From Halomicrobium mukohataei DSM 12286 (GTDB lineage Archaea; Halobacteriota; Halobacteria; Halobacteriales; Haloarculaceae): a stretch of DNA of 32,000 bases. Positions 6,689-25,510 of this stretch are shown piece after piece (position 1 is the stretch's first letter; every line of letters starts with the position of its first letter). The stretch spans positions 1,560,001 to 1,592,000 of the forward strand of contig NC_013202.1 of assembly GCF_000023965.1 (NCBI RefSeq), given 5' to 3'. The position numbers and the translations under genes are program-made. Under the pieces are notes generated by a model that saw nothing but the letters and a program-made list of their open reading frames with translations, was not told the DNA's origin and made no database searches.

Positions 6689-8904
6689 GTCCGCTCGTTT
6701 TCGGGCGACCGGGATGTGTGTTGTGTCTCGGCCTGCTGGAACTCCAGCACGGCGACGGCACCGCGGCGCGTGCCCTCGTCGCGGATGTCGTTGTCCTCGA
6801 TCCAGACTGTCCCGCCGTAGAGGTTCATCATCACCGAAACGAAGTAGAGTCCGAAGCCGTGGCTGGTCTGGCTGGCCCCGACGTTGCGCTCGAAGACGGT
6901 CTCTTTCATCTCGTCGGTCATGCCGGGGCCGTTGTCTGCGACTCTGAGCTGGACGCGGTCGGCGATCTCGCTGGCGGTGATCTCGACGCGGGGCGCTGGT
7001 GCGTCGTTGTGCGTGATGGCGTTCGAGATGACGCTGTCGACGACCTTCTCGACGAGGTCGTTGGCGAGGACGGTCAGCCCGTCGTCGACGGCCAGGTCGA
7101 TGGTCACGTCCGTGAAGTCCTCCGAGAGCACGTCGACGCGGTCGGACAACACCCCGCCGAGATCGATCCTGTCGAGGCGCTGTGCCTCGCTGGCCGTGAC
7201 GGTGTCGTTGATCGCTTCGATCTCCTCGCTGAGTTCCGAGAGATCCTCACACCACTGGACGATGCGGTCGAGGTGTCGCTGTCTGGCGTCGTCGACGTGG
7301 TCTCGCAGGTGGTTTGCTCGTCCTTCGATGACGAGCAGGGCGTTGCGCAGCGTGTGTCGCAGCACCCCGTTGAAGAACGCGACCTGCTCGTTGCGACGCT
7401 CGATGGCCTGTCGGCTCTGGCGCAGCTCGTGTTCGCGGTCGACCTGCGTGAACGCGACCTGCGTCGTCCGGGCGAGGATCGTCGCGAACTGCTCGTCTTC
7501 GGTCACGAACGCACCGGGCTCGCGCGAGCCGATCGCCAGCACGCCGTGGTTGTCGATCGGAACGAGGAGGAGATACCGGAACGGCATCGTCGTTCCCGAG
7601 TCTCGTACGTCCGCTCTCTCGATCGTCTCGGACTCGTAGGCGCTGTAGATCGGGTGGCCCCGATCCTCGACCGTCAACTCCGTCAGCGTACACTCTCGTT
7701 CGAGCCCGTCGCTGGCGGCGATCGGGCACAGTCGATCGTTCTCGTGGACGTATACGGCCGCGATGTCCTGATCGAGGACGCGGTCCGCGAACCTCACCGT
7801 CAGCTCGGCGATGCGCTCGACCGAGTTGGCCGTGATGAACTTCTGGGTCGCCGCCTGGAGGGCTTCCAGGCGGTCCTGGCGGCGCTGCTGGCCGGTCACG
7901 TCACGCAAGACGACGAGTCGCCCCCGTTCGACGCCGTGCTGGTCGTCGATCGAGGTGACCTGCGGGTCGAAGTACGTGACCTCTTCGGCGGGCCCGTCGG
8001 ACCGCGAGTAGACCGAACTGCCGTCGAGCCGTTCTGCGAGTCGCGGTGCGACGGTGGTAAGCCGTCGGTCACAGAGAGGGTCGGCGTCGAACATCGCCTC
8101 GGCGGCGCGGTTGTGGTCGAGGATCCGACCGTCTTCCGCCAGCACGAAGACCGGATCGGGCAGTTCGTCGACGAGGATGTCGCTCGCCAGTGGCGTCACG
8201 TCGAGGAGGTCGTACCGGAACAGTCCCCAGCCGAGCACCAGTCCGGTGAGGCCCAGCGCGGCCGGCGTCAGATCCACGCCCGGGTGCGAGAACTGATAGA
8301 ACTGCGTCGCGGCGTTGACGATGACCGGGACGAGGATCGCAGTCACTACCGTCGCCGTCTGGAGGCGGTAGATGGCCCGCGATCTGACGAGAAAGCGTGC
8401 CAGGAGGACGAACGCCGCCGCGAGGACGACGTACGTGTAGAGGAGATCGATCTGGGAGGGAATCCCCTCTGTGACGGTCAACACGGCGGCATCCTCCCAC
8501 GTTCCGACCCAAACGCTCTCGGGGCCCTGCACGTAGCCGTGGAGCGGTGCCGTCGCCGAGAGGGCGGTGTAGCCGGCCGGAACGATCCACACCAGCCCGA
8601 CGAACCGCGGCGTGAGAACGTCTTCACGTCCGATATAGGAGAGCACGAACACCAGTACGAGCGGGGCAGTGCTACTGGAGGCAGCCCGAGCGAAGCGGTC
8701 GAACAGATACGCGCTCGCCGGTTCCGCGGTCAAGACTCGGGCCGTCGCCATGAACGCCCACGCGGCGGCAGCGACCATCAGCCAGCCAAACGCCGCGGCC
8801 GCCGGGCGATCGTGGTTGCGCCAGGCGAACACCGCCATGGCACTGCAGATCAGCCCGCTGACCAACGTCGTGGCGACGGTCCCCCAGAAGACGTACGTGG
8901 CCAT
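6685..8904 (-). CDS. membrane sensor histidine kinase (N-terminal multi-TM domain, PAS, GAF, HisKA, HATPase_c)
   Basis: ATG at 8904; the longest ORF uses a GTG at 8940. About 7 TM helices occupy aa 1-230. H-box LRHTLRNAL, N-box NAITHND, G1 VADNGPGM, G2 GFGLYFV. TGA at 6685-6687. Confidence 0.9.
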   Translation of the reverse strand: MATYVFWGTVATTLVSGLICSAMAVFAWRNHDRPAAAAFGWLMVAAAAWAFMATARVLTAEPASAYLFDRFARAASSSTAPLVLVFVLSYIGREDVLTPRFVGLVWIVPAGYTALSATAPLHGYVQGPESVWVGTWEDAAVLTVTEGIPSQIDLLYTYVVLAAAFVLLARFLVRSRAIYRLQTATVVTAILVPVIVNAATQFYQFSHPGVDLTPAALGLTGLVLGWGLFRYDLLDVTPLASDILVDELPDPVFVLAEDGRILDHNRAAEAMFDADPLCDRRLTTVAPRLAERLDGSSVYSRSDGPAEEVTYFDPQVTSIDDQHGVERGRLVVLRDVTGQQRRQDRLEALQAATQKFITANSVERIAELTVRFADRVLDQDIAAVYVHENDRLCPIAASDGLERECTLTELTVEDRGHPIYSAYESETIERADVRDSGTTMPFRYLLLVPIDNHGVLAIGSREPGAFVTEDEQFATILARTTQVAFTQVDREHELRQSRQAIERRNEQVAFFNGVLRHTLRNALLVIEGRANHLRDHVDDARQRHLDRIVQWCEDLSELSEEIEAINDTVTASEAQRLDRIDLGGVLSDRVDVLSEDFTDVTIDLAVDDGLTVLANDLVEKVVDSVISNAITHNDAPAPRVEITASEIADRVQLRVADNGPGMTDEMKETVFERNVGASQTSHGFGLYFVSVMMNLYGGTVWIEDNDIRDEGTRRGAVAVLEFQQAETQHTSRSPENERT

Positions 8905-20131: not shown

Positions 20132-20222
20132 ACCATCGCCTGTGACTGACAGCCAAAGACAGTGGTGGATCCCGTCGCAGATCGCCGTGACACGGCCCGG
20201 AGAGTTCGTCTCATACTGCCAG

Positions 20223-20282
20223 CTGTAACTTCGTGAAGATCTTCGCCACCCCGGGGTGGCGAAATCGGTCACAGATTTACAG
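20223..20282. repeat. 60-bp imperfect palindrome (element A) with a perfect 22-bp core
   Basis: CTGTAA...TTACAG termini. The perfect palindrome TTCGCCACCCCGGGGTGGCGAA is at 20242-20263, exactly centred in the element. It lies between the stop of the 20292 gene and the peptidase start. Confidence 0.8.
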
Positions 20283-20291
20283 CCGGTAGTA

Positions 20292-20639
20292 TCACTCCGC
20301 GTGCTCTGGGTCGGACTCCCGGGTCACCGTGATCTCGACCTCGTCGGCGTCGATACCGAGCCTGACGAACTGGGTTCGGACGTGATCTTTCGCGGCGTCG
20401 AGGGCCTGCTCGCGGTCCTGAAAGCCCCGCGGCATCGGCGACTCGAACGCGATCTGGATCTCTTCGCCACCGATCGTCTGCGTGCTACCGCCGGTGTCCA
20501 CTTCGTAGAACTCGTCGCAGATCCAGACGTACGGCGCGTCGTCGTCGGGGCTGCCGGCGAACTCCGGGGCGTCCTCGCCGTCCTCGTAGATCGTGCCCGT
20601 CAGCGCCGTCCCGCCGGCCGCACCGTGTACCAGAAGCAT
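20292..20639 (-). CDS. acidic hypothetical protein
   Basis: ATG at 20639 (MLLVHGAAGG...), 115 aa, with alternative ATG at 20723 and GTG at 20735. A TATA-like AAATATC lies on the minus strand at 20668-20674, about 30 nt upstream of 20639. Confidence 0.55.
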   Translation of the reverse strand: MLLVHGAAGGTALTGTIYEDGEDAPEFAGSPDDDAPYVWICDEFYEVDTGGSTQTIGGEEIQIAFESPMPRGFQDREQALDAAKDHVRTQFVRLGIDADEVEITVTRESDPEHAE

Positions 20640-20954
20640 CGTCGGAACTTGTGTCTCCACTCTCTTCGATATTTCGGCCTCGAAGCCGACACCACGGCAC
20701 GAACGATCACGAGAGCGTGTCATGGAACCCGCCACGAGATGTTATTTCTTAGAAACCCTCACCGAAATATTCGATTAGTATGAATGCGAATTGGACGCTG
20801 GGGGCTATGCTAACAATAACTCAGCTTTAAACGTTAGCGTCGGAGAGGTCCGTGATCGGCATCATCTGTCCTTGTCACCGCCTTCGTCACACTCCAACGT
20901 GTAAAGCCGAGCTTTTAATATAGTCCAATAACAATTATAGGTTGACACTATCGG

Positions 20955-21013
20955 TTGTAGCCTCGTGAAAATCTTTGCCATCTCGGGTAGTACCATCGTT
21001 CATAGATTTACAG
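20955..21013. repeat. diverged AT-shifted copy (element B) of the 60-bp element A
   Basis: It aligns to 20223-20282 with 45 identical columns of 60 and one 1-nt gap. The palindromic core is degraded. It ends with the same AGATTTACAG, 35 nt before the GT2 start codon. Confidence 0.7.
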
Positions 21014-21048
21014 GCTCCGACCCACCTGCTTGCCGCTGACATCATTCT

Positions 21049-23247
21049 ATGAGGGGATCAAAAACAATACAGAAATTAAAAAGTGTTTTGGTAGTATACA
21101 AGCTAATATGGTATATTTCTCTCGGACTTGGTGTTTTTGGGGCTTTTACTGCTGGAATTACAAATCATTCTGCAGGCTGGGTGTTTTTTATTTTTCCAAT
21201 GGTAATTCTCATCAGTTTCTCTCTGATTAATAGTTGGCAAGTAATGCAACGAGGTGTAGCGCAACCAGCAGGCGGGCAATTCACAATACTTGCTGGTCCA
21301 ACTGTATTTTTTCTTGCGCTCATTCTGTCATCAGAGATTATACCAGCACAAGTACAAATCCCATTTATCGGCAAGCTCACTATTCTTGTTACCGGTACAC
21401 AGGCGTTGTTTTTGTCGATAAGTTTGCAAGGTGAGGAAGCACCTCTCTTTCGGCGGAATATAATTCCAGCAGCCAGTCATCTGCTCATCGGTCTGGGTTC
21501 TATTCTGTTGGTTGTAGCTGCGCTTCGAATTACGGTCACGCGTGTGTTCCAAGGAGTGGTACTTTGGTACGCTACTGGATTGACTGTGTTGTTACTCAAT
21601 ACGTTCTGGCGAAATCAGCGAATTGATTCAAGTAGGTTCAAATCATCAAGTGGAATTTCTGATGATTGGAACAATATATTGTTAATTTCAGTTGTTATTG
21701 GTATTATTTCTGCTATATTTATTGTCTTTAGTTCATTAAACCAGCCGTTGACTCTAGAGATCGTCGCTCTGGCTCGACCATGGGCATTTGATACTACGCT
21801 CGAACAATTTGCAGTAATAGTTGTCGGGACCTGTGCAGTGCTCGCATTTGCAACACTCAGTGCTCCGACATCTGCACCTAGTCCCGTGCAGCGACTCAAT
21901 CGCATAGCAATTACTATCAGCTCGCAAGCCCTCACAACCGCTATTTTGCTGAACACGCTACTGCTTGGTCTGTTCTTCGTGGTTCCACCTCTACTGACAC
22001 TAATATTTGGCCTACTTATCGTGCTCGTTACACTCACAGTTATTCTGGATTATCTAAGAGCTGTATACATTAGCCGCAATCAGACTGGAAACACGCCAAC
22101 TGAGCCGGTGTCAGCCTGTATTTCGTCGTCTATAACTGTAGTTATTCCGGCATACAATGAAGCCGGTGTTCTGTCAGAAACAATTGAGCGCAATATCAAA
22201 GCATTGAACAGACTGCAATTCTTGTTGGTCCCAGCAGCGGGGTCTACGGATGAAACTGTAGAAATTGCACATCAGTTCCAGGCCAACTATCCTGATCGCA
22301 TCCGTGTATTTGAGGGGACAACTGGATCCAAGGCGGGTGATTTAAATCGTGCATGGAACAGAATTGACACTCCATTTGTGCTTCTGTTGGATGCTGATGA
22401 GGTTACAGATATGGTATTTGTTTCACGGGCACTTCGAACTCTAAAAGAGTCTCCAGATGTAGGCATTGTCCAAGCCCGCAAGGTACCCCGTCAGCTAGAT
22501 AACTGGATGGCTCGATTCGTTGCGGCAGAGCGTCGAGTTCAGACATGGATAAGTCACCAATTTATTCACGATGTGTGCGCAGCGAGCCATTTTGCGGGGT
22601 CAGGAGCAGTACTCAGACATAAGGTCCCAAATGAAATAGATGGCTGGTCGCCACAAGCTCTGACTGAGGATATTGATTTTACTATACGGTTATACTTACA
22701 GACTGACTGGCAGATTAGTTACAACTCGCGGCTAGCCGTGTATACTCTTCCACCTGCAACGATCTCCAATTTGATTCGACAGCGTCGGCGGTGGACACGC
22801 GGCTGGGTAGAAGTAACGTGGCGTTACACACGTAATCTCATTCATTCACGACAGACCCTCGGATGGCGGAAAACGGCCGGTCTTCTTTGGGAACTATTTT
22901 CAACTATCAGTGCACCACTTTATTTGGTTTCGATAGCAATTACAATATTCATATTTGGCGAATTAGGACAGTCTTTTCCCCTATTGTTCGTAGTTTCACT
23001 TGCAGTATTTTTATTGCCTGCACGGGGCATTATTTTTTCATACACAGCAAAGAACGACATAATAAAATCCGTAGATGGAATCCAGATTGTAGCAGTGTTC
23101 TTCTTCGCGTATCTCTGGATGCTTTTTATATGGCTAATACAGCTTCATGTTCTCTATCTTCAAATATCAGGAACTCCAAAAAAATGGGAGGTGACACAGA
23201 AACAAATATATGAAAATAATTCTGCTCATAATCTTTGGTCTGATTGA
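21049..23247 (+). CDS. polytopic membrane family-2 glycosyltransferase, processive beta-glycan synthase type
   Basis: 732 aa. Motifs in order: VVIPAYNE (aa 364-371), GSKAGDLN (426-433), DAD (448-450), QARK (475-478), TED (539-541), QRRRW (578-582). About 10 hydrophobic helices precede the catalytic domain and 3-4 follow it. Codon usage is AT-rich. Confidence 0.85.
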   Translation: MRGSKTIQKLKSVLVVYKLIWYISLGLGVFGAFTAGITNHSAGWVFFIFPMVILISFSLINSWQVMQRGVAQPAGGQFTILAGPTVFFLALILSSEIIPAQVQIPFIGKLTILVTGTQALFLSISLQGEEAPLFRRNIIPAASHLLIGLGSILLVVAALRITVTRVFQGVVLWYATGLTVLLLNTFWRNQRIDSSRFKSSSGISDDWNNILLISVVIGIISAIFIVFSSLNQPLTLEIVALARPWAFDTTLEQFAVIVVGTCAVLAFATLSAPTSAPSPVQRLNRIAITISSQALTTAILLNTLLLGLFFVVPPLLTLIFGLLIVLVTLTVILDYLRAVYISRNQTGNTPTEPVSACISSSITVVIPAYNEAGVLSETIERNIKALNRLQFLLVPAAGSTDETVEIAHQFQANYPDRIRVFEGTTGSKAGDLNRAWNRIDTPFVLLLDADEVTDMVFVSRALRTLKESPDVGIVQARKVPRQLDNWMARFVAAERRVQTWISHQFIHDVCAASHFAGSGAVLRHKVPNEIDGWSPQALTEDIDFTIRLYLQTDWQISYNSRLAVYTLPPATISNLIRQRRRWTRGWVEVTWRYTRNLIHSRQTLGWRKTAGLLWELFSTISAPLYLVSIAITIFIFGELGQSFPLLFVVSLAVFLLPARGIIFSYTAKNDIIKSVDGIQIVAVFFFAYLWMLFIWLIQLHVLYLQISGTPKKWEVTQKQIYENNSAHNLWSD

Positions 23248-23695
23248 TTACTTGTTATTATAGATGATACATGTAGTAACTAATATGAAATGGTTGTGTC
23301 CGCCAGAATCTCTAGTCAGCCGGTAGAGGTGTGCTAAGTATTTCCCACGCCTGCCAATGCTGCTAATTTGGCATATAGATATTCTGTATCTTGCACCGGA
23401 ATCCTAACAGGTAGCGGATGGGTTGTCGCTTCCCGCGTCACGTTCTTTGCCTGTATTGTCCGAGTCGTATTCCGCTCGAACGACCGGATTCTTCGAACCA
23501 CTCGTCCGCGCGATTCACTGGTCGAGCGGAGCGAGACCGGCTTTTGGTATCGACGGGTTTTCGCCGAGCGGTTCGCGTCGTGAATCCGAGGCGAAAAACG
23601 GTCGCACAGTATCGGTCGTCGGCAGATGGCCACAACGAGGATTGTGACCGTCTCCGGGGGAAAGGGGTTAGTCGGGGGAGCGACATTGGTCCCGT

Positions 23696-25510
23696 ATGTC
23701 TGATCTCGGGGATTTCACGGAGTTCGACGCCGACGACAGCGAGTCGTCGACGCCAGCCGACGGAGCGACGGGAGACGAAGACGGGGCCGCGGCCGACGAG
23801 GACGAGGCCTTCGAGGAGATGGACATCGAGCCAAGCGGGCGCGACCGCGGGATCGGCGTCCTCTCGGCCTCGGAGGGGCTGGCGATCTGCGAGGACGAGC
23901 GCGAGACCTGCCTGCGGGCGTACGTCACCGTCGGCAACCGCTCGGACGTGCGCATCGGCAAGTACCTGCTCGTCCCCTATCCGGACGGTGAGCGACTGTT
24001 CTGTCGGATCTCGGCGCTGGAGTACGCCCAGGAGTTCCGCGCCGACGACGCGACCGAGATCCACGCGCGCCGCGCCATGCGCTCGGGTGGGATCGACGAG
24101 CAGGACTTCAAGTTCATGGCGACGCTGGAGCCCGTCGCCGTCCTCTATGGGACGGGCGACGACATGAAGCGCCGGATGACCGACCGCGTGCCAAAGCCCG
24201 AGACAGTCGTCCGCCAGGCCACCGACAAGAGCGAGATCAAGACCGGGCTGAAGATCCCCGAGGACGGCGTCTTCCTCGGGCATCTCTCGGTCGGCGGCGA
24301 GAAGGTCCAGACGGCCGCCGAGCCGCCGACGATCGACTACCGGCTAAAAGACGACTACGAAGCGGGCGATCCGCTGGTCTTCCGGCACACGCTCGTGGCC
24401 GGCGGCACCGGGTCGGGCAAGACCCACGGCTCGAAGAACATCCTCCGGCAGTACCTCGCCGAGGACCGAACGTATCCCATCGAGGGAGAGGACCGCGACG
24501 TGTCTCCCTGTCTGGTCATGTTCGACCCACAGGACGAGTACGCTCAGATGCACGACGACGGCGACCTCCCCGAGGAGTTCCAGCGCCGCTGTGAGCGCGA
24601 GGGGATCGCCTGTGGCGGCCACGAGGACACGACGGCGTTCGTCCCGAAGGTGTCGGGTTCGAGCTACGCCGCGAGCCACCACCGCGCCGAGCAGGTCGAG
24701 TTCACCATCCCCTTCTCGATGGTCTACTCGAACCCGTGGCTGATCGCCGGCAGCCAGCTCAACGACAATCAGTACAGCGCCCTCCACTACCTGCTCGACC
24801 GGTTCGAGAAGGAGTACGGCGAGGACGGGACCTACGACCAGTTCACGACGTTCCTCGACGACCCCGCGCTCAAGGAGGAACTCGACGAGTCCGGCCGCGT
24901 CCACGAGGCGACCTTCGACGCCGTCAAGCGCCGGGCCTACGGCTTCGGCGGCGTCTTCGATCAGGACGCCCGGCCGATCACCGACATGGTCAAACAGTTC
25001 GTCCGCTCGGGCGGGATCAGCGTGGTCCCGACCTACCACATCAACGACTCCCGCTCGAAGACGACGGTCGTGCTGGCGCTGGCCTCGATGCTCGTCGACG
25101 AGAAGCTCTCGAACAGCCCGCGCTACGACCGCATCAAGGAGACGCCGCTCATCCTCGGGATGGACGAGGCCCACAACTTCCTGACCGACGCCGACAACGT
25201 CCAGGCCCGGAAGGTCATCGGGAAGTTCACCGAGGCCGCGAAACAGGGCCGCAAGGAGCGCCTCGGGCTCTTCCTCATCACGCAGGACCCCCAGGACATC
25301 GCTGATCCCGTCTTCAAACAGATCAACAGCACCGTCGTCCTCAATCTGGGCGACGAGGACGCCATCTCCGCGGTCAACATCCCCGCGAACCTGGAGTCGA
25401 AGGTCCCCTACATGGAGAAAGGCCAGATGGTGGTGTACTCGCCGGACAACTCCGAGCCCGTCGAGATCCAGGGACTCGCGACCTGCGTGACCAAGCACGG
25501 GCGAGAGTGA
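23696..25510 (+). CDS. herA: HerA-type (DUF87/FtsK-HerA superfamily) hexameric ATPase/helicase
   Basis: 604 aa. An acidic N-terminal tail is followed by a HAS-barrel-like region. Walker A is VAGGTGSGKTH and Walker B is LILGMDEAHNF. Confidence 0.8.
   Translation: MSDLGDFTEFDADDSESSTPADGATGDEDGAAADEDEAFEEMDIEPSGRDRGIGVLSASEGLAICEDERETCLRAYVTVGNRSDVRIGKYLLVPYPDGERLFCRISALEYAQEFRADDATEIHARRAMRSGGIDEQDFKFMATLEPVAVLYGTGDDMKRRMTDRVPKPETVVRQATDKSEIKTGLKIPEDGVFLGHLSVGGEKVQTAAEPPTIDYRLKDDYEAGDPLVFRHTLVAGGTGSGKTHGSKNILRQYLAEDRTYPIEGEDRDVSPCLVMFDPQDEYAQMHDDGDLPEEFQRRCEREGIACGGHEDTTAFVPKVSGSSYAASHHRAEQVEFTIPFSMVYSNPWLIAGSQLNDNQYSALHYLLDRFEKEYGEDGTYDQFTTFLDDPALKEELDESGRVHEATFDAVKRRAYGFGGVFDQDARPITDMVKQFVRSGGISVVPTYHINDSRSKTTVVLALASMLVDEKLSNSPRYDRIKETPLILGMDEAHNFLTDADNVQARKVIGKFTEAAKQGRKERLGLFLITQDPQDIADPVFKQINSTVVLNLGDEDAISAVNIPANLESKVPYMEKGQMVVYSPDNSEPVEIQGLATCVTKHGRE

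What the first reader, a model, noticed from the sequence alone, without database searches (positions are those of the whole stretch)
20745..23410. Low-GC single-gene island encoding an atypical polytopic GT2 synthase in a high-GC haloarchaeal backbone
Composition drops sharply. My hand counts of 60-nt lines give 28%, 40% and 53% G+C inside the ORF, against 68% in herA. The only credible gene (21049-23247, 732 aa) carries PAYNE, KAGDLN, DAD, QARK, TED and QRRRW in order. This is the signature of processive family-2 beta-glycan synthases (cellulose, chitin, hyaluronan, PNAG and NodC types). Three points are unusual. First, about 360 aa with about 10 hydrophobic helices precede the catalytic domain, and 3-4 helices follow it. 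Second, no partner export, modification or regulatory gene is present. Third, the soluble catalytic region (aa ~362-590) has roughly balanced charge (I count about 26 D/E against about 27 K/R), whereas every neighbouring protein is strongly acidic. This points to recent acquisition from a lower-GC and possibly non-salt-in donor. It may be a self-contained synthase-plus-translocon for an uncharacterised surface polysaccharide.
Basis: partly seen in the sequence, partly recalled or inferred. Interest (0 to 1): 0.7.

Follow-up and report, generated by a model that had tools for sequence, protein, structure and literature searches.

The report
Imported sugar-polymer synthase gene island
A single low-GC gene recently dropped into a conserved gap of the Halomicrobium mukohataei chromosome encodes a rare membrane sugar-polymer synthase; its catalytic half looks like cellulose or hyaluronan synthase, and its large front half matches no known protein family or structure.

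Summary

**Composition.** Window 21049-23247 is an intact 732-aa ORF at 43.6% GC (GC3 0.37). Its neighbours sit near 67% GC (GC3 0.80-0.93). The GC z-score is -12 and the CAI is 0.17.

**Recent gain.** The source is Halomicrobium mukohataei. Four close relatives (HerA 90-94% identical) have the two flanking genes, DUF7113 and herA, only 96-126 nt apart. H. katesii (HerA 99%) carries a different small gene at the same spot. The cassette was therefore gained very recently, at a site that varies across Haloarculaceae.

**The protein.**
- It has a GT-A domain with invariant DxD, TED and QRxRW motifs that align to cellulose synthase BcsA.
- It has a C-terminal WxVTxK motif that resembles a gating loop.
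- Its structure model (pLDDT 85) matches BcsA and hyaluronan synthases.
- It scores far below the cut-offs for PgaC, BcsA and NodC, so it belongs to none of these.

**The N-terminal module.** The first ~345 aa form ten helices with invariant Q, H, Y, W and N residues.
- It has no Pfam family and no PDB fold match.
- It occurs in only 46 of 1.84 billion protein clusters, where those are full length (660-790 aa) as in the GT2 family.

**Still open.** No partner gene is conserved. The polymer made and the donor organism are unknown. A non-salt-in donor is not supported.

The parts
20677..23654 (.). Whole segment absent from the empty-site Halomicrobium relatives. In them it is replaced by about 18 nt of a 96-nt DUF7113-herA spacer.
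   Evidence: blastn of the window against L181 and L183. Homology stops at 20676 and resumes at 23655.
20740..23576 (.). Low-GC cassette specific to H. mukohataei. H. katesii has an unrelated 854-nt segment here, carrying a 229-aa DUF8127-like gene.
   Evidence: The flanks are 97.6% identical to H. katesii L179 up to 20739 and from 23577. GC profile.
20677..20739 (.). Left arm, shared by H. mukohataei and H. katesii and absent from empty-site genomes.
23577..23654 (.). Right arm, shared by H. mukohataei and H. katesii and absent from empty-site genomes.
21049..23247 (+). GT2 synthase gene, 732 aa, identical to WP_015762615.1 / ACV47771.1.
21049..22080 (+). N-terminal module of ten helices (aa 1-344) with no known family or fold. 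Invariant residues are W21, G31, Q118, H144, Y174, G177, W187 and N302.
22132..22803 (+). Cytoplasmic GT-A catalytic domain (aa 362-585). Motifs in window coordinates: PAYNE 22147-22161, KAGDLN 22330-22347, DAD 22390-22398, QARK 22471-22482, HFAGS 22588-22602, TED 22663-22671, QRRRW 22780-22794.
   Evidence: Pfam PF13641 1.7e-30 and PF13632 3.3e-23. Alignment to BcsA. Coordinates.
22762..23169 (+). Interface and transmembrane helices after the catalytic domain (aa 572-707). By analogy with BcsA and HAS these would form the channel.
   Evidence: AF2 helices 572-599, 606-636, 645-668 and 677-707. Foldseek matches to BcsA and CvHAS over 430-480 columns.
23185..23202 (+). C-terminal WEVTQK motif. 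W713, T716 and K718 are invariant. It resembles the FxVTxK gating-loop motif of cellulose synthases.
   Evidence: Invariant columns; coordinates. The likeness to FxVTxK rests on my own knowledge of BcsA and was not shown by an alignment.
20942..21013 (+). Decayed, AT-enriched partial copy of an 80-nt palindromic mobile repeat (model positions 3-75 of 90). It ends 36 nt before the GT2 start codon and no longer folds significantly.
23318..23327 (+). CAGCCGGTAG, identical to the outer right arm of the palindromic repeat. It may be the missing end of the split copy. This is weak evidence, a 10-mer only.
   Evidence: Read from the sequence and compared. nhmmer did not detect it.
20213..20292 (.). 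Intact 80-nt palindromic small mobile repeat, abutting the DUF7113 stop codon. It lies outside the island.
20292..20639 (-). Left flanking host gene, DUF7113 (115 aa, 67% GC).
23696..25510 (+). Right flanking host gene, herA / DUF87 ATPase (604 aa, 66% GC).

Best explanation
A cassette of about 2.8-3.0 kb holding one gene was recently inserted by horizontal transfer into the short divergent spacer between DUF7113 and herA of Halomicrobium mukohataei. The donor was an unsampled low-GC haloarchaeon. The spacer is a recurrent variable site in Haloarculaceae.

The gene encodes a membrane-embedded processive family-2 glycosyltransferase. A cytoplasmic GT-A domain (DxD binds the metal and nucleotide-sugar, TED supplies the catalytic base, QRxRW holds the acceptor end) most likely adds sugars one at a time to a growing beta-linked glycan. 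The chain would be threaded out through a channel formed by the enzyme's own transmembrane helices, so no separate exporter is needed in an archaeon that has no outer membrane.

A conserved N-terminal module of ten helices is unique to this rare family. It packs with the channel helices in the model. It probably extends or gates the conduit, or binds a lipid or glycan partner.

What is shown: the composition, the borders, the recent gain, the family membership at motif and fold level, and the novelty and rarity of the N-terminal module. What is inferred: processivity, translocation, the product, and the role of the N-terminal module.
For: **Horizontal transfer.**
- GC 0.436 against 0.668 (z = -12), GC3 0.37 against 0.80-0.93, CAI 0.17.
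- Empty sites with 96-126 nt spacers in four syntenic relatives, HerA 90-94% identical.
- A different cargo in H. katesii, HerA 99% and flanks 97.6% identical.
- Identical junctions in three complete genomes and two read-archive assemblies.
- None of the Haloarculaceae herA loci in which DUF7113 was also found upstream carries a relative of the gene.

**Variable site.** The same spacer holds other cargo in other species, part of it of lower GC, or a TnpB gene.

**Enzyme.**
- Pfam GT2 domains.
- D401, K428, D431, D448, D450, Q475, R477, K478, H514, F515, G517, S518, T539-E540-D541, Q578, R579, R581, W582, W713, T716 and K718 are invariant in 31 relatives.
- A profile search hits BcsA structures at E 5e-20, aligning KAG, DAD, FxGS, TED and QRxRW.
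- The AF2 model has pLDDT 85.4 and pTM 0.86.
- The best Foldseek matches are BcsA, Chlorella-virus and Xenopus hyaluronan synthases, and PcManGT.

**Stand-alone gene.** No neighbour is conserved across family loci.

**N-terminal module.**
- It is conserved, with invariant polar and aromatic residues.
- It has no Pfam hit, no PDB fold match (best E 0.27) and no detectable internal repeat.
- It gives only 46 hits among 1.84 billion representatives. Those that are full length are 660-790 aa, and the six inspected all carry the GT2 domain.

**Gene integrity.** The ORF is intact. It departs at only 3 of 38 near-invariant columns, which is within the family range.
Against: - No experiment shows a polymer, expression of the gene, or the sugar used.
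- Scores against curated equivalogs are far below their cut-offs: PgaC 98 against 422, BcsA 69 against 699, NodC 26 against 550. The product cannot be inferred by homology.
- GT2 enzymes with the same motifs include makers of oligosaccharides and glycolipids. Homologues also hit PF13506 (Glyco_transf_21).
- The cytoplasmic domain is not acidic (pI 8.6) in a salt-in host, codon adaptation is very poor, and this protein has the longest branch in its subclade. It may work poorly or not be expressed.
- The insertion mechanism is unresolved. There is no integrase, tRNA or IS element.
- The link to the palindromic repeat rests on one decayed partial copy and a 10-mer.
- The channel and the packing of the N-terminal module come from a predicted model only.
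Confidence: 0.72

Rival explanations
1. The enzyme is not a secreted-polymer synthase. It would make a short oligosaccharide or a glycolipid (like NodC, ceramide or diacylglycerol glucosyltransferases, or polyprenyl-phosphate glycosyltransferases), and the N-terminal helices would bind the lipid acceptor.
For: - Homologues also match PF13506 (Glyco_transf_21).
- The archaeal membrane mannosyltransferase PcManGT and DPMS appear among the structural and sequence matches.
- No export or modification partner is present.
- The invariant polar residues inside N-terminal helices could form a lipid head-group site.
Against: - The best sequence and structure matches are the processive synthases BcsA and HAS, over the catalytic domain plus the flanking helices.
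- TED, QRxRW and FxGS, together with a C-terminal WxVTxK motif, are the set typical of processive enzymes (typicality is from my own knowledge).
- The best NCBIfam match, PgaC, spans aa 344-704 including the membrane helices.
Confidence: 0.17
2. The gene is an inert, newly arrived passenger. It would not be expressed or not fold in the salt-in cytoplasm of H. mukohataei, it would contribute nothing, and it is on its way to decay.
For: - CAI 0.17 and GC3 0.37.
- The cytoplasmic domain has net charge +2 and pI 8.6, whereas relatives have net -1 to -17.
- It has the longest branch in its subclade.
- Three near-invariant positions are changed: G50P, E208N and P671I.
- It is found in only one species, and a sister species has a different cargo at the site.
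Against: - A 732-codon open frame in AT-rich DNA is about 6e-19 likely by chance (my estimate from base frequencies).
- All catalytic and invariant residues are kept.
- The protein sequence is identical in three sequenced strains, although those strains are very close.
- This rival concerns present-day function in the host, not what the protein is.
Confidence: 0.2
3. The gene is ancestral to the genus and was lost in the relatives. Its low GC would be a gene-specific property, not a sign of transfer.
For: Some homologues sit below the GC of their flanks in other genomes too, by up to 17 points.
Against: - Four syntenic relatives have a clean 96-126 nt spacer with no remnant.
- H. katesii has unrelated cargo between the same arms.
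- In most family loci the gene's GC equals that of its flanks, over a range of 0.49-0.74. Low GC is therefore not intrinsic to the family.
- The 23-point deficit here is the largest seen.
Confidence: 0.02

Closest known systems
Bacterial cellulose synthase BcsA (Rhodobacter sphaeroides, PDB 4HG6/4P00/5EJ1; E. coli 9B8V/9FNN)
   Same: - It is the best sequence-profile match (E 5e-20) and the best Foldseek match.
- KAG, DAD, FxGS, TED and QRxRW align.
- The GT-A domain sits between transmembrane helices.
- The C-terminal WxVTxK motif resembles the FxVTxK gating loop.
   Different: - There is no PilZ domain and no equivalent of TM7 and TM8 after the gating loop.
- No BcsB partner is present.
- The NCBIfam CelA score is 69 against a cut-off of 699.
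- The extra N-terminal module of about 290-345 aa has no counterpart in BcsA.
PgaC/IcaA poly-beta-1,6-GlcNAc synthase (TIGR03937)
   Same: It is the best NCBIfam match. The alignment spans aa 344-704 (model positions 30-385 of 407), that is two helices, the GT domain and the C-terminal helices.
   Different: - The score is 98.5 against a cut-off of 422, so this is not an equivalog.
- No PgaD or IcaD partner and no deacetylase gene is nearby.
- The N-terminal eight or so extra helices are absent from PgaC.
Class I hyaluronan synthases (Chlorella virus 7SP6; Xenopus HAS1 8SMP)
   Same: - They are stand-alone enzymes that both make and translocate the polymer.
- Foldseek TM-score normalised to the target is 0.55-0.58 over about 430-495 columns.
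   Different: - Sequence identity is only 13-15%.
- HAS uses two sugars and has WGTSGRK and QxxRW variants.
- HAS has no large N-terminal module.
Variable cell-surface and glycosylation gene regions in haloarchaeal genomes (Haloquadratum genomic islands; strain-variable glycosyltransferases of Halorubrum lacusprofundi and Haloferax)
   Same: A strain- or species-specific surface-glycan gene of foreign composition in a high-GC chromosome. Such variation is usually ascribed to virus pressure (PMC6011602, PMC3119063, PMC5867893).
   Different: Here the island is a single gene, not a cluster. It encodes a synthase-type GT2, not N-glycosylation (Agl) enzymes. It sits at a precisely defined spacer with an empty-site comparison available.
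Small mobile repeats, MITEs and PATEs of Haloquadratum walsbyi (PMC3119063)
   Same: The 80-nt palindrome at 20213-20292 is short and non-coding. It occurs in many copies across genera and shows insertion polymorphism between close relatives.
   Different: - The sequence was not compared with the published families.
- The flanking TCA repeat looks like a 3-bp target duplication, whereas SMRs and PATEs are described as making none.

Membership tests
Glycosyltransferase family 2 (GT-A fold, inverting) | A GT2 Pfam domain above the gathering score | tested here: met
   PF13641 107 bits (cut-off 27), PF13632 83 bits, PF00535 58.5 bits.
Glycosyltransferase family 2 (GT-A fold, inverting) | A DxD metal and nucleotide-sugar motif | tested here: met
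   D448-A-D450 is invariant in 31 relatives and aligns to the DAD of BcsA.
Membrane-integrated processive GT2 synthases (BcsA / HAS / chitin synthase / PgaC / NodC type) | TED catalytic-base motif and Q(R/Q)xRW acceptor motif | tested here: met
   T539-E540-D541 and Q578-R579-x-R581-W582 are invariant. They align to the TED and QRGRW of BcsA.
Membrane-integrated processive GT2 synthases (BcsA / HAS / chitin synthase / PgaC / NodC type) | Catalytic domain flanked by transmembrane and interface helices that form a glycan channel | tested here: inconclusive
   The AF2 model (pLDDT 85, pTM 0.86) has helices on both sides. Foldseek aligns 430-480 columns to BcsA and HAS. This is a prediction only, and the channel itself could not be inspected because no coordinates were available.
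Membrane-integrated processive GT2 synthases (BcsA / HAS / chitin synthase / PgaC / NodC type) | Gating loop motif (FxVTxK / WGTxxK) | tested here: inconclusive
   WEVTQK at aa 713-718, with W, T and K invariant. Its equivalence to the BcsA loop was not shown by alignment, because the HMM alignment ended at profile position 566.
Membrane-integrated processive GT2 synthases (BcsA / HAS / chitin synthase / PgaC / NodC type) | Processive synthesis and export of a polymer | not testable with these tools
   Needs biochemistry or genetics.
PgaC/IcaA (TIGR03937 equivalog) | Score at or above the curated cut-off of 422.3 bits | tested here: not met
   98.5 bits.
BcsA cellulose synthase (TIGR03030 / NF008558) | Score at or above the cut-off (699 / 992), a PilZ domain, and a BcsB partner | tested here: not met
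   68.6 and 50.7 bits. No PilZ hit in Pfam. No conserved neighbour.
NodC chitooligosaccharide synthase (TIGR04242) | Score at or above the cut-off of 550 | tested here: not met
   26.1 bits.
Horizontally acquired genomic island | Atypical composition together with absence from close relatives at a syntenic site | tested here: met
   z = -12 and CAI 0.17. Empty sites in L181, L183, L184 and L187; different cargo in H. katesii L179.
Horizontally acquired genomic island | Mobility signatures (integrase, tRNA target, flanking direct repeats) | tested here: not met
   No tRNA and no integrase or IS gene. There is only a decayed partial palindromic repeat and a 10-mer at the edges.
Known anti-virus defence systems (PADLOC) | A match to a defence-system protein model | tested here: not met
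   No hits.

The most novel reading that the evidence does not exclude
The N-terminal ten-helix module is a new kind of membrane domain that works with a processive GT2 core, for example as an extended glycan conduit, a lipid-primer site or a polymer-modifying site. This would define a previously unrecognised class of single-polypeptide exopolysaccharide synthase, found mainly in haloarchaea. In addition, the DUF7113-herA spacer would be a cassette-exchange site where surface-altering genes are swapped between haloarchaea, seeded by small palindromic mobile repeats, to change recognition by viruses, mating partners or nanohaloarchaeal symbionts.
Probability: 0.25. Interest if true: 0.7.

Novelty: new variant of a known kind. 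Interest (0 to 1): 0.5.

Why it matters
- To my knowledge, no processive synthase-translocase of the BcsA / HAS type has been characterised in archaea.
- This family offers a compact stand-alone example from organisms without an outer membrane. It carries a conserved 345-aa membrane module that has no known fold.
- Working out what that module does could show a new way of priming, guiding or modifying a glycan as it crosses a membrane.
- The locus is also an unusually clean natural experiment. Near-identical genomes carry the cassette, a different cassette, or nothing between the same two genes.
- That allows a direct test of what a single surface-glycan gene does for a haloarchaeon: biofilm, virus adsorption, mating or symbiont attachment.
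- As a plain case of horizontal transfer into a haloarchaeon it is unremarkable.

Tried and rejected
1. **tRNA or integrase-type island.** No tRNA is in the window and no integrase or IS gene lies near the cassette.
2. **Virus-borne gene.** No family member was found in 2.9 million viral contigs or in GenBank phages, only GT2 proteins 24-27% identical.
3. **Plasmid origin.** One 37%-identical homologue lies on Haloplanus rubicundus pCBA1112-02. It is too distant to be the donor and is unannotated there.
4. **Known family for the N-terminal module.** Pfam at E up to 10 on eight diverse members gave only two sub-threshold chance hits. Foldseek of a separate model against the PDB gave nothing below E 0.27. 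hhalign of the two halves found no internal repeat.
5. **Conserved partner genes.** Clustering the flanking ORFs of 33 family loci showed sharing only among near-identical loci.
6. **Structured RNA in or beside the island.** There were no Rfam hits at the gathering score or at E up to 1. The decayed palindrome before the gene does not fold better than shuffled sequence.
7. **Palindrome linked to the GT2 family in general.** No palindrome copies flank the homologues.
8. **Palindrome in viruses.** The 13 single-arm 16-mer matches are about what chance would give, by my own estimate from the collection's size.
9. **Pseudogene drift.** Departures at near-invariant columns are within the family range.
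10. **Defence-system membership.** There were no PADLOC hits.
11. **Genome scan with HerA.** It returned no Halomicrobium genome at all. I reached the sister genomes instead through a protein search and exact look-ups.
12. **Literature.** No paper mentions WP_015762615 or ACV47771.


Full report

Yes. In 500-nt windows, G+C falls from about 0.64-0.74 to 0.41-0.47 between 21001 and 23500. The only long ORF there is 21049-23247 on the + strand, 732 aa.

- The gene is 43.6% G+C. 2199-nt windows elsewhere in the window average 66.8% (sd 1.9), giving z = -12.1.
- GC3 is 0.368, against 0.80-0.93 in ten neighbouring genes.
- A codon adaptation index trained on those neighbours gives 0.166, against 0.61-0.81 for the neighbours themselves.
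Residues 355-600 hold 26 D/E and 28 K/R (pI 8.6), while neighbouring proteins have pI 4.05-4.7.

**2. Where the window comes from, and the locus**

The protein is identical to WP_015762615.1 / ACV47771.1 / QCD66222.1 / QFR21027.1, named 'MULTISPECIES: glycosyltransferase [Halomicrobium]'. It is found on three chromosomes longer than 1 Mb and in read-archive assemblies. The window is therefore Halomicrobium mukohataei.

The gene order is NurA(+), peptidase S9(-), DUF7113(-), GT2(+), HerA/DUF87(+), Usp, Usp.

**3. Is the gene recently acquired?**

A scan of one genome per species with HerA returned 80 loci, mostly Haloarculaceae, and no Halomicrobium genome.
- Where DUF7113 could be found upstream (about 54 of these loci), it is the divergent upstream neighbour of herA.
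- The gap between the two genes is 100-250 nt in about 15 species and about 950 nt in many others.
- That 950-nt gap holds an endonuclease/exonuclease/phosphatase-family gene in the loci I inspected.
- None of these loci carries a relative of the GT2 gene.

A protein search then found the true sister taxa. Exact look-ups gave their loci.

| Relative | HerA identity | DUF7113-herA spacer |
|---|---|---|
| Halomicrobium sp. HM KBTZ05 | 94% | 96 nt, empty |
| Metagenome contig L183 | 93% | 96 nt, empty |
| Metagenome contig L184 | 91% | 126 nt, empty |
| Metagenome contig L187 | 90% | 126 nt, empty |
| H. katesii (L179) | 99% (flanks 97.6% nt) | 854 nt of unrelated DNA with a 229-aa DUF8127-like gene, 57% GC |

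Synteny is otherwise perfect in all five.

The alignments fix the borders.
- Against the empty site, the extra DNA is 20677-23654.
- Against H. katesii, the differing core is 20740-23576.
- The two species share short arms (20677-20739 and 23577-23654) that the empty-site genomes lack.

The ancestral state of the genus is therefore an empty spacer. The mukohataei-katesii lineage acquired an insert, and its core differs between the two species. The GT2 cassette is specific to H. mukohataei.

**4. Is the site special?**

In other Haloarculaceae the same spacer holds other cargo, some of it of lower GC.
- Haloarcula argentinensis (L078): 4.6 kb at 52% GC, including a GT87-like membrane protein.
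- A Haloarcula MAG (L076): 4.6 kb at 57% GC, with a 564-aa membrane protein and an FAD-dependent oxidoreductase.
- Halapricum sp. (L014): 7.4 kb, with a 38-55% GC core encoding an MFS transporter, a methyltransferase and an ATP-grasp protein.
- Halapricum hydrolyticum (L013): a TnpB (Cas12f-like) gene.

This looks like a recurrently hit variable site. Neither a tRNA nor an integrase explains it.

**5. A small palindromic mobile repeat near the island**

An 80-nt palindrome sits at 20213-20292, abutting the DUF7113 stop codon. Its outer arms are ATACTGCCAGCTGTAA and TTACAGCCGGTAGTAT, and the inner stem is GCCACCCC/GGGGTGGC. It folds at -45.9 kcal/mol, z = -6.4.

- Copies about 88% identical occur at unrelated places in Halovenus, Haloarcula and other loci. 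An nhmmer model finds about 20 places in 14 of the loci held at that point, including the herA-proximal spacer in L007 and L073.
- At the window's position the element is absent in HM KBTZ05 and L183, where the sequence reads ...TC[TCA]CTCC.
- In the window the element is flanked by TCA on both sides, which looks like a 3-bp target duplication. Both of those genomes carry copies elsewhere.
- It is therefore a small mobile repeat, of the general kind catalogued as MITE, SMR or PATE in Haloquadratum (PMC3119063). Rfam has nothing here.

Its possible link to the island:
- A decayed, AT-enriched partial copy (model positions 3-75) lies inside the cassette at 20942-21013, 36 nt before the GT2 start.
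- The 10-mer CAGCCGGTAG, which is the missing outer arm, recurs 70 nt after the stop codon.
- The H. katesii cargo also ends in a partial copy (L179 6836-6890).

This hints that the repeats mark or mediate cargo exchange. The evidence is thin: the right-hand remnant is only 10 nt, and no palindromes flank the homologues elsewhere.

**6. What the protein is**

*Sequence and family searches.*
- Pfam finds GT2 domains over aa 362-634.
- The best NCBIfam hit is PgaC/IcaA at 98.5 bits over aa 344-704, against a cut-off of 422.
- BcsA (69 against 699) and NodC (26 against 550) are also far below their cut-offs. The protein is not an equivalog of any characterised synthase.

*Conserved residues.* Thirty full-length relatives, 33-62% identical, were aligned. 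The following are invariant.
- Nucleotide-sugar and metal site: D401, K428, D431, D448, D450.
- Acceptor and catalytic motifs: Q475, R477, K478, H514, F515, G517, S518, T539-E540-D541, Q578, R579, R581, W582.
- C-terminal motif: W713, T716, K718.

*Comparison with solved structures.*
- A profile of the family hits the BcsA structures 4HG6, 4P00 and 5EJ1 at E 5e-20 to 7e-20. KAG, DAD, FxGS, TED and QRxRW are in register.
- The AlphaFold2 model is confident: pLDDT 85.4, pTM 0.86.
- Its best PDB matches are E. coli and Rhodobacter BcsA, Chlorella-virus and Xenopus hyaluronan synthases, and the archaeal PcManGT.

*Inferred topology.* Ten helices come before the catalytic domain. With a basic N-terminus inside the cell, this places the GT domain in the cytoplasm. 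After it come an interface helix carrying QRRRW, two membrane helices, a long hydrophobic helix (677-707), and the WEVTQK motif at the very C-terminus. From my own knowledge of BcsA, this order (TM, TM, interface helix 3, FxVTxK gating loop) matches cellulose synthase up to the gating loop, with TM7, TM8 and PilZ missing. No alignment showed that equivalence.

*The N-terminal module.*
- Residues 1-345 are conserved across the family, with invariant W21, G31, Q118, H144, Y174, G177, W187 and N302.
- It has no Pfam family, even at E up to 10 in eight diverse members.
- It has no detectable internal repeat.
- A separate model (pLDDT 80.8) has no PDB match better than E 0.27 and TM-score about 0.3.
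- An exhaustive profile search of 1.84 billion cluster representatives found 46 proteins. One is a low-complexity false positive, about 30 are 660-790 aa, and the rest are mostly shorter fragments. The six full-length ones I inspected all carry the GT2 domain.

The module is thus essentially confined to this rare family. It is not a common domain of haloarchaeal GT2 enzymes.

**7. The family and the donor**

- Family genes range from 40% to 74% GC. In most loci they match their flanks, so low GC is not a property of the family.
- In L113, L114, L115, L124, L004 and the Haloplanus plasmid the gene is 8-17 points below its flanks, which suggests repeated transfers. The 23-point deficit here is the largest.
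- Neighbours carry haloarchaeal DUF7xxx and DUF8xxx families.
- A more distant branch is arginine-rich and not acidic. One such member lies next to a CDP-archaeol synthase gene, so it is archaeal.
- No neighbour is conserved across the family. Stand-alone operation is a family trait.
- Some members carry C-terminal DUF1508 repeats or an extra membrane domain.
- The H. mukohataei protein nests within the P0002-P0010 subclade and has the longest branch there.
- Its nearest relative is 62% identical in protein, 68% in DNA, and has 53% GC. The donor is therefore unsampled.
- The catalytic domain is the least acidic in the family: net +2, against -1 to -17 in the relatives. It nevertheless keeps R far above K (23 to 5) and uses CGN arginine codons. 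That fits a haloarchaeal lineage with low GC3 better than a non-salt-in, lysine-rich donor.

**8. Mechanism, and how sure**

*Shown:* a foreign single-gene cassette; a recent gain at a variable spacer; a GT2 enzyme with the full catalytic motif set and the predicted fold of processive synthase-translocases; a novel conserved N-terminal membrane module; no partner genes.

*Inferred, about 0.7:* the enzyme polymerises a beta-linked glycan from a nucleotide sugar in the cytoplasm and extrudes it through its own helices.

*Not determined:* the sugar, the linkage, expression in this host, and the role of the N-terminal module. The invariant Q, H, Y, W and N residues within its helices suggest a polar path or a binding site.

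*Rivals:*
- A maker of glycolipid or oligosaccharide (about 0.17).
- A passenger not working in this host (about 0.2). This concerns present function in the host, not what the protein is.
- An ancestral gene lost in the relatives (about 0.02).

Assembly error is excluded by identical junctions in three genomes and two independent assemblies.

**9. Novelty and verdict**

Variable, foreign-looking cell-surface and glycosylation genes are a known theme in haloarchaeal genomes and are usually linked to virus pressure (PMC6011602; PMC3119063). The island as such is therefore ordinary.

What is new is the protein family. It has a BcsA/HAS/PgaC-like core fused to a large membrane module of unknown fold, it is very rare, and it is annotated only as 'glycosyltransferase family 2'. 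No paper mentions it. I rate it a new variant of a known kind, with interest 0.5.

Noticed in passing
window 20213-20292 (also L179 5498-5584; L181 1325-1410; L183 9988-10074; L068, L073, L120, L076, L007, L041, L057, L078): An 80-nt palindromic repeat (hairpin -45.9 kcal/mol, z = -6.4) is found at about 88% identity in several Haloarculaceae genera. It is present after the DUF7113 stop codon in H. mukohataei and H. katesii. It is absent at that exact spot in two close relatives, where a single TCA stands; in the window TCA flanks the element on both sides. It looks like a small mobile repeat. Rfam has no match.
   Followed up: partly
DUF7113-herA spacer: window 20640-23695; L078 3344-7968; L076 3306-7920; L014 451-7887; L013 4927-8001; L179 5929-7000: The short divergent spacer upstream of herA is a recurrent variable site in Haloarculaceae. 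It is empty in some species (96-250 nt). In others it holds an EEP-family nuclease gene of about 950 nt, cargo that is in part of lower GC (a GT87-like membrane protein; MFS, methyltransferase and ATP-grasp genes), or a TnpB gene.
   Followed up: partly
L179 6028-6881 (H. katesii): H. katesii has a different cargo between the same 63-nt and 78-nt arms as the GT2 cassette. It is a 229-aa DUF8127-like gene on the minus strand (57% GC), and the segment ends in a partial copy of the palindromic repeat (6836-6890).
   Followed up: partly
family members P0020, P0025, P0027, P0028 (974-986 aa) and P0004, P0006, P0007 (924-932 aa): Some relatives carry C-terminal extensions. One type has several DUF1508 (PF07411) repeats and the other has an extra hydrophobic domain of about 200 aa. 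Their meaning for regulation or function is unknown.
   Followed up: no
P0034 (L174), P0077, P0081, P0087, P0092, P0098, P0102: A distant branch of the family has the same architecture but is arginine-rich and not acidic, so it is probably not from salt-in halophiles. P0034 lies next to a CDP-archaeol synthase gene, which points to an archaeon.
   Followed up: partly
L087 (Haloplanus rubicundus plasmid pCBA1112-02, record 507-2180): A 37%-identical homologue covering aa 159-726 lies near the start of a 147-kb plasmid record. No feature is annotated under it, so it may be a pseudogene, or the gene table for that record may be incomplete.
   Followed up: no
window 23473-23513 and L179 10113-10153: A 41-nt stretch inside the right-hand non-coding part of the cassette matches, at 85% and in reverse orientation, an intergenic spot elsewhere in H. 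katesii. It may be another short repeat.
   Followed up: no
Genome-contig scan: The scan of one genome per species with HerA returned no Halomicrobium genome at all, not even the source species. The collection appears to lack or mask this genus, so absence from that scan says nothing about the genus.
   Followed up: yes
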